Positions 39,001-42,000 of a DNA stretch of 64,000 nucleotides are shown here, piece after piece. Source of the DNA: Sphyrna mokarran (taxonomy: Eukaryota); assembly GCA_024679065.1 (NCBI GenBank), contig JAGIQG010000009.1, forward strand, positions 53,506,001-53,570,000, read 5' to 3'. Within the stretch, counting starts at the first letter, position 1. Each line of letters opens with the position of its first letter. A program made the position numbers.

Positions 39001-42000
39001 TCCTGTATTAACATACTCTCTGGAACTTGTTAACAACATATCTGCCCATGCCTCACAGTCACAACTTTGAAAATTCATAGCAAGAGAACTCTTTGTCACA
39101 GTTAGTATTTTGTACTATATTGGCTTGTCTATTTTACTGCATTTGCTTTTACTTGATTTGCAATGAAGCAATTAATTTGTACATTTTTGATGATGCTTCT
39201 CAAATTCTTTGCTCCAAAGGGTTTTTTATTATTAATTTGTGAACATAGGCTTTGCTGGCTATGATGCGGAGATGCCAGCGTTGGACTGAGTAAACACAGT
39301 AAGAAGTCTGACAACACCAGGTTTAAATCCAACCAATTTATTTGATAGTAAACTCACAAGCTTTCGACTCTATGGCCTTCGTCAGGCGAATGAGGTGTTC
39401 TGGTCTCCTAGCACACATACCAGCACTGACAGTTTACAGATTGCTAATAAGAATGTGAATCTTTACATCTAACCTGCTAGTCAAGTCTTAAAGTGGCTAA
39501 CAATGTGAGTGGAAGGAGCACTGAGCACAGGTTAAAGAGATGTGCATTGCCTCCAGACAGCACAGTAAGTGAGGTTTTTTGCTAACCCAGGCTAGTCATG
39601 GGGGTTACAGATAGTGTGACATGAAGCCAAGATCACTGTTAAGACCGTCCTCATGTGTGCAGAACTTGGCTATCAGTCTCTGCTTAGCGGCTCTGCGCTG
39701 TCGTGTGTCGTGAGCACTGAGCACTGTTCTTCAAGGGGGGCCTCACTTACTGTGCTGTCTGGAGATAATACACATCTCTTTAACTTGTGCTCAGTGCTCC
39801 TTCCACACACATTGTTAGCCACTTTAAGACTTGAATAGCAGGTTAGATGTAAAGATTCTCATTCTAATCAGCAATCTGTAAACTGTCAGTGCTGGTATGT
39901 GTGCTAGGAGACCAGAACACCTCATTCGCCTGACGAAGGCCATAGAGTCGAAAGCTTGTGAGTTTACTATCAAATAAATCAGTTGGATTTAAACCTGGTG
40001 TTGTCAAACTTCTTACTGTGTTTACCCCAGTCCAATGCCGGCATTTCCACATCATAGCCAGCAAAGTCTACCGTTCACAAATTAATAATAAAAAACCCTT
40101 TGGGGCAAAGAATTTGAGAAGCAAAAGATTCACATTCTAATCAGTAATTTGTAAACAGTCTGTGTTGATATGTGTGCTGTTGGAGACCAGAACACCTCAT
40201 TCGCCTGACAAAGCCCATAGAGTCAAAAGCTTGCGAGTTTACTATCAAATAAATCGGTTAGATTTAAACCTGGTGTTGTCAGACTTCTTACTTTGCTGGC
40301 TAGCCAGCATTTATTGTCGGTTGCTGGTTGTCCAAGGACAGCTGAGAGTCAACCACATTGCTGTGGCCTTGGAGTCACACGTAAGCCAGATCAGGTAAGG
40401 ATAGCAGATTTCCTACCCTAAAGGACATTAGTGAACTAGATGGGGTTTTCCCAACAATGGACATCAGTAGATTCTTAATTCCAGATACATTTAAAAAAAA
40501 TTTTATTGAATTTAAATTGTACCAGGTCTCCAGAACTTTAGCAGCTTTGATAAAGGGTCATCCGGACTCAAAATGTCAGCTCTTTTCTCTTCTTACAGAT
40601 ACTGCCAGCTTTTCCAGCATTTTCTCTTTTGGCCCCCAGAACGTTAGCTGAGTTGCTGGTGATATTACACTAGACCATCATTTTCCATAAATAAAGTAAT
40701 TTAATTTGTGGTTTTGAGAGGCAGAATATTCATGAAGACATTTGAAGAGGGTATTCAATGGTGCAAGAAATATGCTGGTTAAAAATGAGATGAGTTAACC
40801 CAGCATGTAATTGCTTAAACATCAACAACATGTATTTACATAGCAGCATTCACATAATTAGTTGAAACTGAACCACATAATTCAGAAAGATGGTCAAAAA
40901 TGTTGGCAATAAGAAACGTCTTAAAGGAAGAAAAAAAATTGGAGAGGTGTAGAGAGGGAATTCCAGAGTCTAGAGTCTAGGCAGCAGAATGCAGGGTCGC
41001 TAAAGATTAAGCAATTAGAACTGGGTTGCTTTGAGAGTCCAAGATTAATTGAGTGTATTAAATCTAGATATTTTGGAGGTTTGTGGGACTGGAAGACATT
41101 GAGAGGAGGGCATAATCAGAGAATTTTAAAATCCAAGTGTTGCCTAACCAGGAGCCAATGTAAAGTAGCAAGGGCAGGAAAAAGATGTGTATTATTTGAT
41201 ATAAGTAAGAACATGCAAGCAGGATTTTAAATGACTTCAAATTTATGGAAGGAAGAATGTGGATGGATGGTTAGGAGCTGCATTGAAATAGTCAAGTCCA
41301 GTGATAACAAAGCAAGAGATGTGAGTTTCAGCAGCAGATAAGTTGAGGTCATGGGAATAGACAGATTTAGCACAGCTGGGAATACACAACCCAAAGCTGA
41401 TCCCAATGACAGATATAGGAGCTAGGTTGCAACAAACTGTTTCACACTGTTGCCAGGGAGAATGATGAAATCAGGAATAAGTCTGTAGTGGGCACTGAAG
41501 ACAACAGCAATAAAGCTATTGTGCCAAATATATGTGTGGAACGACTATGGCGTATCCCTCATTTACTTTAAAATATACACAACTGAACATAATGAAAATC
41601 ATTGAATCCTACAATGCAGAGGAGACCATTTGGCCCATCGAGTCTGCACTGACCACAATCCCACATAGGCCCTATCCCCGTGACCCCATACATTTACCCC
41701 AGCTAACCTCCCGACTCTAAGGTGCAATTTAGCACGGCCAATCCACCTAACCTGACTGTCTTTGGAGTGTGGGAGAAACCAGAAAACCCGGAAGAAAGCC
41801 ATGCAGTCATGAGGTTAATATGCAAACTCCACACAGATACTGACCCAAGCCAGGAATTGAACCGGGGTCCCTGCTGCTGTGAGGCAGCAATGCTAACCAT
41901 TGTGCCACCATGCCAAAAATGGCAGCTTCTTTAAATTTTACTTTGCAATAAAGACATTTACAAGTAAAGCTACTGCTTACAAAATAATAGGAATGGTATG

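What the first reader, a model, noticed from the sequence alone, without database searches (positions are those of the whole stretch)
39194..40302. PLE insertion containing an inverted copy of its own target-site flank
Seen: ~380-bp inverted arms (39194-39574 and 39741-40123) enclose the PLE endonuclease C-terminus. The whole insert (39261-40290) is bounded by a 12-bp TSD. Inside it, 40056-40123 is the reverse complement of the 67 bp of host DNA just left of the insertion (39194-39260), and a third terminal-repeat copy follows (40124-40290). Established: PLEs often insert with inverted or tandem pseudo-LTRs. Inference: the inverted arm was copied from DNA already joined to the chromosome, ran past the junction into host sequence, then switched back to element template. 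That would be a footprint of fold-back or template-switch synthesis during PLE integration.
Basis: partly seen in the sequence, partly recalled or inferred. Interest (0 to 1): 0.7.

Follow-up and report, generated by a model that had tools for sequence, protein, structure and literature searches.

The report
Retroelement insertion holding inverted host flank
A truncated Penelope-like retroelement insertion really does contain a reverse-complement copy of its own junction with the chromosome, most likely a fossil of the new DNA strand folding back and copying itself during insertion, a process already seen for other retroelements.

Summary
The structure is real. Arms 39194-39574 and 39741-40123 are 94% complementary. 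An exact 12-bp duplication bounds the insert. The right arm carries reverse complements of the element end, the 12-bp target and 57 nt of host flank, followed by a third, partial copy (40124-40292).

The element is the 3' end of a Penelope-like element on the minus strand: 41 codons match the C-terminus of RT/GIY-YIG proteins.

Seven other units of the family in the window define its normal form: a 36-nt "tail" at one end only, an inverted tail-less arm, and a TSD of about 12 bp. None shares the flank sequence.

A second unit (51643-51973) also has an inverted copy of its junction (34 nt, 94%).

So the inverted arm was templated by DNA already joined to the chromosome. Snap-back of the first cDNA during integration is the best reading. 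It has precedent in R2 and L1, and self-priming has been proposed for PLEs.

Timing is not proven. The third copy is more diverged than the arms are from each other, which a gene-conversion tract could explain.

Reads, the orthologous empty site and a genome-wide count could not be checked.

The parts
39194..39249 (+). Host flank F, the template of the inverted copy. Its 3' part belongs to a host interspersed repeat.
   Evidence: No other match in the window except its own inverted copy. Positions 39216-39260 align to paralog 11502-11453 with score 19, equal to the maximum of 500 shuffles.
39250..39261 (+). Left copy of the 12-bp target-site duplication, CTTTGCTGGCTA.
   Evidence: Exact direct repeat with 40291-40302.
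39262..39297 (-). 36-nt 'tail', the extreme 3' end of the element. Element sense is the minus strand.
   Evidence: Present at 7 ends and absent from 6 ends of the family in the window (nhmmer). Alignment.
39298..39574 (-). Left arm A, the element's 3' untranslated or pLTR region. On the plus strand it reads as first-strand cDNA.
   Evidence: Homologous to units at 43624-43867 and 51672-51885.
39575..39740 (-). Spacer. It holds 3' UTR (39575-39604), the stop codon (39605-39607), the last 41 codons of the PLE ORF (39608-39730), and 10 nt of unassigned origin ending in G6 (39731-39740).
   Evidence: The peptide is 82% identical to P0001. It matches residues 840-880 of the 881-aa RVT_1 protein P0013 at 26/41 identities. 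GIY-YIG is found in relatives.
39741..40017 (+). Right arm A', the reverse complement of 39298-39574.
40018..40054 (+). Inverted copy of the tail (37 nt).
   Evidence: nhmmer hit 40055-39967 on the minus strand.
40055..40066 (+). Inverted copy of the TSD, TAGCCAGCAAAG.
   Evidence: pairs I5 and I9.
40067..40123 (+). Inverted copy F' of host flank 39194-39249.
   Evidence: I3: 51 nt at 98%. One search lists 4 differences, including one indel.
40124..40292 (+). Third partial copy A''. It is in sense orientation, lacks the tail, and ends at the family's canonical tail-less end. Its last 2 nt overlap the TSD.
   Evidence: 89.5% over 172 columns; tail-less hit.
40291..40302 (+). Right copy of the TSD, continuous with the host repeat to its right.
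   Evidence: Positions 40295-40417 align to paralog 11459-11330 with score 68, against a shuffle maximum of 18.
51643..51973 (+). Second case (unit U6). It comprises 29 nt of host flank plus the tail start (51643-51676), tail plus arm (51672-51879), a 26-nt hairpin with a 2-nt loop (51854-51879 / 51882-51907), 32 nt unassigned, and then an inverted copy of the junction (51940-51973).
   Evidence: I1: 34 nt at 94%; I2: 26 nt at 92%. (scores 22 and 28, against shuffle maxima of 10 and 12). (the filler could not be assigned).

Best explanation
This is a single integration of a 5'-truncated Penelope-like element (sense strand = window minus strand) into a host repeat. A staggered cut produced the 12-bp TSD.

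Shown:
- The ends are the family's canonical ends. The left end carries the tail and abuts the TSD. The right end is a tail-less inverted arm and also abuts the TSD.
- The interior holds a reverse complement of 277 nt of arm, the tail, the TSD and 57 nt of host flank.

Inferred sequence of events:
1. The plus-strand 3'-OH at 39261 primed first-strand cDNA, now 39262 to about 39730-39740.
2. The 3' end of that cDNA snapped back onto itself at 39574.
3. It was extended on its own strand through the arm, the tail, the cDNA-target junction and the TSD.
4. It continued 57 nt into the upstream flank. The flank's complementary strand has a free 5' end after the staggered cut, so it could be displaced or resected.
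5. The growing strand then moved to a second, tail-less cDNA primed from the opposite target strand (40292 back to 40124), copied it, and was joined to the right-hand target.

Either the element's reverse transcriptase or a host repair polymerase could have done the DNA-templated part. The sequence cannot tell which.
For: 1. The junction-spanning inverted copy is real. The only strand carrying flank, TSD, tail and arm in one piece is the plus strand after target priming. The opposite strand lacks the TSD complement after a staggered cut, and the RNA lacks both TSD and flank (inference from the anatomy).

2. The ends and TSD match the family's normal form. Among 8 units, 4 (U1, U2, U4, U5) have a tail at one end, a tail-less inverted arm at the other, and a 12-13 bp TSD.

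3. There is recurrence. 2 of 8 units (U2, U6) carry an inverted copy of the flank beside the tail-bearing end, and none does so for the other flank (16 tests). U6 also has a 26-nt hairpin with a 2-nt loop at an internal position where unit U3 reads on.

4. The background is low. Of 17 inverted pairs of at least 28 nt within 1.5 kb in the whole window, 10 involve this family. The only two made of unique host DNA are these two junctions. Of 1558 sampled positions, 27 (10 clusters) have an inverted copy of their left 60 nt nearby. 6 clusters lie in this family and 4 in other repeats.

5. A paralog of the host repeat is collinear with flank, TSD and right flank, a proxy for the empty site.

6. There is precedent.
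- R2 insertions in human cells show 'snap-back' 5' junctions, with reverse-complemented cDNA 'or nearby rDNA' (PMC11371274 and PMC11331408, passages read).
- A PLE protein cleaves and extends both target strands and starts reverse transcription at two sites a tail-length apart (PMC11167929, main text read).
- Self-priming was proposed for PLE inverted repeats (PMC3846280, Discussion read).
Against: 1. The third copy is not equidistant. In 169 shared columns the private differences are 3 (left arm), 3 (right arm) and 14 (third copy). The binomial P against a star tree is 8.8e-4. Taken at face value, the arms were duplicated after the ends were made.
- A counter-argument exists. The arms show no difference over 39336-39445, a maximum gap of 111 nt with P = 0.013. 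12 of the 14 differences private to the third copy fall inside that tract and the other 2 just outside it. That is what a gene-conversion tract between palindrome arms would give.
- This rescue is an inference, not a demonstration.

2. There is no Watson-Crick microhomology at either switch point. G6 faces T6 at the turnaround, and the join at 40123/40124 is blunt.

3. All copies are old, at 6-10% pairwise divergence. No fresh example was seen.

4. Only one 64-kb window was available, so n = 8 units.

5. U6 has no TSD, and 32 nt inside it could not be assigned.

6. Read support and the orthologous locus were not checked.
Confidence: 0.52

Rival explanations
1. Post-integration rearrangement. 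A canonical insertion (tail-bearing arm, spacer, tail-less inverted arm) sat here first. Later, a replication template switch or hairpin-mediated break repair made a 381-bp inverted duplication of flank plus element end and placed it 166 bp downstream.
For: The arms differ less from each other (22 of 383 columns, 5.7%) than either does from the third copy (17 of 169, about 10%). A star tree is rejected at P = 8.8e-4. Fold-back inverted duplications at breaks are a known repair outcome (PMC7467729 and PMC11724301, search listings and abstracts only). Palindromic insertions could be fragile.
Against: It needs two homology-free switches, and these happen to lie at the inner ends of the two canonical element pieces. 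The pre-existing inverted arms offer no homology-guided route that places the flank copy next to 40124 (reasoned from the anatomy). A second junction-spanning copy occurs in another unit of the same family, while unique host DNA shows no such duplication elsewhere in the window. The 111-nt tract without any difference suggests conversion, which removes the dating argument.
Confidence: 0.22
2. Two hits at one site. An older, short, tail-less insertion (40124-40292) with its TSD came first. A second insertion of the same family then nicked the regenerated left target copy at the same position, made the 479-nt cDNA, snapped back into the flank, and was joined at the nick without a new TSD.
For: It explains the greater divergence of the third copy. 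It also explains why the flank copy abuts the inner end of that copy. Snap-back synthesis is still part of it.
Against: The tail-bearing plus tail-less pair flanked by one TSD of about 12 bp is the family's normal single-event form, seen in U1, U4 and U5. It requires the same phosphodiester bond to be hit twice. No tail-less single-armed unit with a clear TSD is in the window: U7 has none.
Confidence: 0.1
3. Self-reinsertion of a read-through transcript. The resident copy was transcribed past its 3' end into the flank. That RNA was reverse-transcribed from a nick inside the same element, in inverted orientation (3' transduction landing at home).
For: The right arm reads as element 3' end plus downstream flank in sense orientation, which is what a read-through RNA would contain. 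PLEs are reported to insert into their own copies and to capture host DNA (PMC11167929 main text; PMC3846280 Discussion).
Against: Reverse transcription would have to start 69 nt downstream of the family's two normal start points, in unrelated sequence. The 383-bp piece has no TSD of its own. The same improbable homing would have to have happened again in U6.
Confidence: 0.05
4. Assembly artefact, for example a fold-back chimeric long read or a misjoin.
For: PLE tandem and inverted structures are known to trouble assemblies (PMC8557442, passage read). Reads were not available.
Against: The arms differ at 22 positions with a transition-rich spectrum (16 transitions, 4 transversions, 2 indels). 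An artefactual fold-back would be near-identical. The TSD and canonical ends are coherent. A second, differently built case exists.
Confidence: 0.03

Closest known systems
Canonical Penelope-like element insertions with inverted pseudo-LTR and one-sided 30-40 bp 'tail' (PMC8557442 passages; PMC3846280 passages and Discussion; PMC11167929 main text)
   Same: 5' truncation. An inverted 5'-truncated copy next to the unit. A tail at one end only (36 nt here). A short TSD. The ORF ends in a GIY-YIG endonuclease.
   Different: The inverted arm here does not stop inside the element. It includes the tail, the TSD and 57 nt of host flank, and it lies inside the insert between the two canonical ends. 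I found no description of this in three literature searches. Supplements were closed, and subscription journals are not in the library.
R2 'snap-back' 5' junctions in engineered transgene insertion (PMC11371274, PMC11331408; passages read)
   Same: The cDNA 3' end primes DNA-templated synthesis complementary to the cDNA and, less often, to nearby target DNA, before the 5' junction forms.
   Different: That work concerns a non-LTR element in an experimental system in human cells, with somatic events read from sequencing. Here it is a PLE, a fixed germline copy, with a second element piece after the flank copy.
[quoted passage not shown]
   Same: Self-annealing of a 3' end at a break made during target-primed reverse transcription primes synthesis and leaves an inverted duplication of flanking DNA.
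   Different: The L1 cases shown duplicate genomic DNA mostly at the reciprocal end and have 2-bp microhomology. Here the duplicated stretch starts inside the new cDNA and crosses the junction, and no microhomology is visible.
L1 twin priming (named in passages of the L1 preprint; original paper recalled, not read)
   Same: Both target strands prime cDNA, giving an inverted 5' part.
   Different: Twin priming inverts a different, upstream part of the RNA and never copies target flank. Here the arms are the same element region plus host DNA.

Membership tests
Penelope-like element (endonuclease-containing) | Single ORF with reverse transcriptase followed by a C-terminal GIY-YIG endonuclease | tested here: inconclusive
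   Only the last 41 codons are present at this locus. They match residues 840-880 of an 881-aa protein with RVT_1. Of 32 relatives scanned (out of 66 found, chosen by length), 8 hit GIY-YIG, 5 of them at or above the Pfam cut-off. 4 hit RVT_1, 2 above the cut-off. The peptide itself hits no Pfam family.
Penelope-like element (endonuclease-containing) | [quoted passage not shown] | tested here: met
   The tail is 36 nt. There are 7 tail-bearing and 6 tail-less ends in the window. U1, U2, U4 and U5 each have one of each kind at their outer ends.
Penelope-like element (endonuclease-containing) | Inverted or direct pseudo-LTR arrangement with frequent 5' truncation | tested here: met
   Inverted arms are present in U1 (82 nt, 11-nt loop), U4 (50 nt), U5 (54 nt, 18-nt loop), U2 and U6. 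No unit in the window is full length.
Penelope-like element (endonuclease-containing) | Hammerhead ribozyme motif in the pseudo-LTR | tested here: not met
   Rfam found no family at gathering score in the whole window. There was no hammerhead at E up to 10 in 39000-40500. The fragments may simply not include that part, and some PLE clades lack canonical motifs (PMC8557442, abstract).
Snap-back (fold-back) synthesis during target-primed reverse transcription | Reverse-complemented cDNA directly following the cDNA 3' end | tested here: met
   39741-40017 is the reverse complement of 39298-39574, after a 166-nt spacer. U6 has a 26-nt hairpin with a 2-nt loop.
Snap-back (fold-back) synthesis during target-primed reverse transcription | Reverse-complemented target DNA continuous with the reverse-complemented cDNA | tested here: met
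   40018-40123 is tail, TSD and flank in reverse complement. In U6, 51940-51973 is 5 nt of element plus 29 nt of flank.
Snap-back (fold-back) synthesis during target-primed reverse transcription | Formed in the same event as the insertion | not testable with these tools
   This needs the orthologous or allelic locus, young copies genome-wide, or an assay. The divergence data are ambiguous.

The most novel reading that the evidence does not exclude
In this PLE family the inverted arms in general are made by DNA-templated synthesis on a first-strand cDNA already joined to the target, not from antisense RNA. The two units with inverted flank are cases where that synthesis ran through the normal stop at the tail boundary.

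If so, such fossils record the order of strand transfers in PLE integration. They would also offer a second explanation of the one-sided tail, as the stretch normally left uncopied.

Small loops and near-equal arms in U1, U5 and U6 fit this reading. U2's separate tail-less piece fits a second cDNA better.
Probability: 0.22. Interest if true: 0.7.

Novelty: new variant of a known kind. Interest (0 to 1): 0.5.

Why it matters
How Penelope-like elements build their tandem and inverted ends is described as unresolved in the papers read (PMC8557442, PMC11167929).

An inverted arm that crosses the element-chromosome junction cannot have come from an RNA template alone. It shows that at least some inverted arms are copied from DNA already attached to the target.

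If the pattern is frequent genome-wide, ordinary assemblies of PLE-rich genomes would hold a natural record of integration intermediates, to set beside the single in vitro system.

In practical terms, such insertions make long palindromes containing host DNA. These can mislead repeat annotation and TSD calling.

Tried and rejected
- Rfam search for a hammerhead or any RNA family found nothing of note.
- Pfam on the 41-aa peptide and on its 90-aa best hit found nothing. Identity had to come from longer relatives.
- Polarising the differences of the third copy with other window copies was not feasible. Those copies are only 65-85% identical and not alignable over the informative stretch.
- Microhomology at the two switch points: none beyond G6 facing T6.
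- The origin of the 32 nt at 51908-51939 could not be assigned. The best local score was 9, against a shuffle 95% level of 10.
- Three alternatives were rejected by reasoning on the anatomy:
  - Independent insertions into two inverted copies of the host repeat. The flank copies are about 93% alike, whereas the alignment of the host repeat's paralog to the flank carries many mismatches and gaps.
  - Templating on the opposite strand or on RNA, because both lack the TSD.
  - Recombination between the pre-existing inverted arms.
- The listing of cluster members could not be run, so I have no source names or taxa for the relatives.
- Folding the locus as single-stranded DNA only restates the palindrome.
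- No complex or structure prediction was warranted.
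Full report

Yes.
- The repeat finder on 38500-41000 gives a 285-nt inverted core (39290-39574 / 39741-40025, 96%). It also gives two further inverted blocks that carry the match out to 39194 and 40123 (51 nt at 98%, 43 nt at 88%).
- blastn joins these into one alignment, 39194-39574 against 40123-39741, at 94.26% over 383 columns.
- CTTTGCTGGCTA is exact at 39250-39261 and 40291-40302, and its reverse complement sits at 40055-40066.
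- A third partial copy, 40124-40292, is direct with 39851-40020 and inverted with 39295-39464, at 89.5% over 172 columns.

The window contains no N.

**2. What is the element?**

The spacer holds a 41-codon open frame on the minus strand (39608-39730, stop at 39605-39607).
- Its only word-index hit is a 90-aa protein, P0001 (82% identity, E = 1.6e-8).
- Searching P0001 against the representative library gave 66 proteins at E up to 1e-3.
- I scanned 32 of these 66, chosen by length, against Pfam.
  - 8 hit GIY-YIG, 5 at or above the curated cut-off.
  - 4 hit RVT_1, 2 above the cut-off.
  - 3 carried unrelated domains, probably chimeric gene models.
- The window peptide aligns to residues 840-880 of the 881-aa RVT_1 protein P0013, with 26 of 41 identical.

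This is the very C-terminus of a reverse transcriptase plus GIY-YIG protein, the domain order of canonical Penelope-like elements (PMC8557442, abstract and passages). Element sense is therefore the window's minus strand, and 39262 is the element's 3' end.

No hammerhead or other Rfam family was found.

**3. The family's normal form, from the window itself**

An nhmmer profile of the first 90 nt or so finds 13 ends.
- 7 begin at the first profile positions: 19920, 39261, 43624, 43955, 44515 and 51672 on the plus strand, and 40055 on the minus strand.
- 6 begin 30-42 positions in, and so lack a stretch of about 36 nt: 7709, 20119, 40299, 44147, 44670 and 48560.

Together they make eight units, U1 to U8.

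Units U1 (19920-20116), U4 (43955-44149) and U5 (44518-44662) are short hairpin-like insertions. Each has a tail-bearing end, a small loop, and an inverted arm that ends without the tail. Each is flanked by a TSD: 12-13 bp exact for U1, 13 bp with 1 mismatch for U4, and 12 bp with 2 mismatches for U5.

This is the published PLE signature: an inverted 5'-truncated copy, and a 30-40 bp tail at one end only (PMC8557442 passages; PMC3846280 passages).

A purified PLE protein cleaves and extends both target strands and starts reverse transcription at two sites a tail-length apart (PMC11167929, main text read).

The outer ends of the finding (U2) are exactly this form: tail at 39262-39297, tail-less end at 40292, and an exact 12-bp TSD. 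What is unusual is the interior.

**4. Is the 67-nt stretch host DNA?**
- None of the other five tail-bearing ends has similar sequence upstream.
- The stretch has no other match in the window apart from its own inverted copy. The only other hit is a 14-nt AT-rich one at E = 0.35, which is noise.
- The right flank belongs to a host interspersed repeat with a paralog at 11330-11502 on the minus strand.
  - 40295-40417 aligns to 11459-11330 with score 68, against a shuffle maximum of 18.
  - 39216-39260 aligns to 11502-11453 with score 19, equal to the maximum of 500 shuffles, so this part is borderline.
  - Both TSD copies fall on the same paralog bases.
- So flank, TSD and right flank are collinear with an unoccupied paralog. 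That is the nearest thing to an empty site I could get.

**5. What the anatomy forces**

The right arm reads, without a break: arm, tail, TSD, flank, all in reverse complement.

The template must have carried element and chromosome in one strand.
- After a staggered cut that yields a TSD, the only such strand is the plus strand: the flank and TSD with a 3'-OH, extended by first-strand cDNA.
- The opposite strand of the left fragment ends before the TSD.
- The RNA has neither TSD nor flank.

This is reasoning from the sequence, not a tool result.

**6. A second case**

Unit U6 (51672 onward) has the following parts.
- A 34-nt inverted pair at 94%, 51643-51676 against 51940-51973. This is 29 nt of host flank plus the first 5 nt of the tail.
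- A 26-nt hairpin with a 2-nt loop, 51854-51879 / 51882-51907. It sits at a position where the related unit U3 simply reads on.
- 32 nt in between that could not be assigned.
- No TSD.

Flank test: I took 60 nt outside each end of each unit and compared its reverse complement with the unit plus 400 nt, giving 16 tests. Only U2-left (score 47) and U6 (22 and 28, the same pair seen from both sides) exceed their 200 shuffles (maxima 10-15). The other 13 do not.

Window-wide: 17 inverted pairs of at least 28 nt lie within 1.5 kb of each other. 10 involve this family. The other 7 are 71-86% complementary pairs elsewhere. The only pairs made of unique host DNA are the U2 and U6 junctions.

Sampling every 40 bp: 27 of 1558 positions have an inverted copy of their left 60 nt within 1.4 kb. 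These form 10 clusters, 6 in this family and 4 in other repeats.

**7. Mechanism**

The best reading is snap-back synthesis.
1. The first cDNA (39262 to about 39730-39740) folded back.
2. It primed at 39574 and copied itself through the junction into the flank.
3. The strand then moved to the tail-less piece at 40124, copied it, and was sealed to the right-hand target.

The left fragment's other strand has a free 5' end at the flank/TSD boundary. Displacement or resection would therefore expose the flank as a template.

Precedents:
- R2 'snap-back' junctions include reverse-complemented cDNA 'or nearby rDNA' (PMC11371274, PMC11331408).
- L1 insertions occur with inverted duplications of flanking DNA, explained by self-annealed 3' ends (bioRxiv 10.1101/2024.12.14.628481).
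- Self-priming was suggested for PLE palindromic junctions (PMC3846280, Discussion).

I found no report of a PLE insertion containing its own inverted target flank. The library lacks most subscription journals, and supplements were closed.

**8. What speaks against a single event**

The arms differ at 22 of 383 columns (16 transitions, 4 transversions, 2 indels).

In the 169 columns shared by all three copies, the private differences are 3, 3 and 14. The third copy is the outlier, with P = 8.8e-4 against a star tree. At face value the arm duplication is younger than the insertion.

However, the arm differences are not evenly spread. There are none in 39336-39445, a maximum gap of 111 nt with permutation P = 0.013. 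12 of the 14 differences private to the third copy lie inside that tract, and the other 2 (39330 and 39335) lie just outside it.

A conversion tract between the palindrome arms would erase one arm's private changes and turn the other's into shared ones, which is this pattern. Outside the tract the arm divergence is 22 of 273 (8.1%), close to the 10% of the third copy.

This is a plausible rescue, not proof. A different source RNA for the second cDNA, or an earlier separate insertion, would also fit.

**9. Rivals**

I considered a later replication or repair rearrangement, a two-hit history, reinsertion of a read-through transcript, and an assembly artefact. They are weighed in their own sections.
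- The artefact is unlikely because of the transition-rich divergence between the arms.
- The read-through model needs atypical initiation, and needs homing twice.
- The later-rearrangement model needs two homology-free switches at the element's internal piece boundaries, and recurrence in U6.

**10. Verdict**
- It is plausible but unproven on timing.
- It is uncertain on the nature of the third copy.

This is a new variant of a known kind of event, of moderate interest. Its main value is as a natural footprint bearing on the unresolved PLE integration pathway.

Not checked: read support, orthologous loci, the genome-wide frequency (no eukaryotic DNA collection was available), and source names of the protein relatives (one search did not complete).

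Noticed in passing
window 7709-51973 (units U1-U8): All eight units of this family have the same orientation, with the tail-bearing or cDNA-like end on the left of the plus strand. By a coin-flip model 8 of 8 has a two-sided P of about 0.008. The clustered units may not be independent.
   Followed up: partly
window 43624-44662: Three separate units of the family (U3, U4, U5) lie within 1.1 kb. This could be local insertion preference or chance.
   Followed up: no
window 39575-39580 and 39735-39740: At the turnaround of the palindrome, a run of six T on the left faces a run of six G on the right, where six A would be expected from copying. The 10 nt at 39731-39740 match neither the ORF relatives nor the arm. 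They could be non-templated addition or clustered change. This is unexplained.
   Followed up: partly
window 39336-39445: There is a 110-nt stretch with no difference between the two arms. 12 of the third copy's 14 private differences fall inside it. It looks like a gene-conversion tract between palindrome arms.
   Followed up: partly
window 14791-15345 (minus strand): A 185-codon open frame matches the Pfam Phosducin family (E = 2.7e-85, profile positions 84-250 of 265). It is probably a large exon of a phosducin-family gene, on the same strand as the PLE sense strand.
   Followed up: partly
window 40295-40417, 11330-11502, 27557-27618: These are copies of a host interspersed repeat, 76-77% identical by blastn. 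The insertion under study sits near the start of one copy.
   Followed up: partly
window 5797-6129 (-), 25766-26098 (+), 57941-58348 (+), 59380-59775 (+): These open frames look by eye like retroelement protein fragments. None hit a Pfam family at E up to 0.01.
   Followed up: partly
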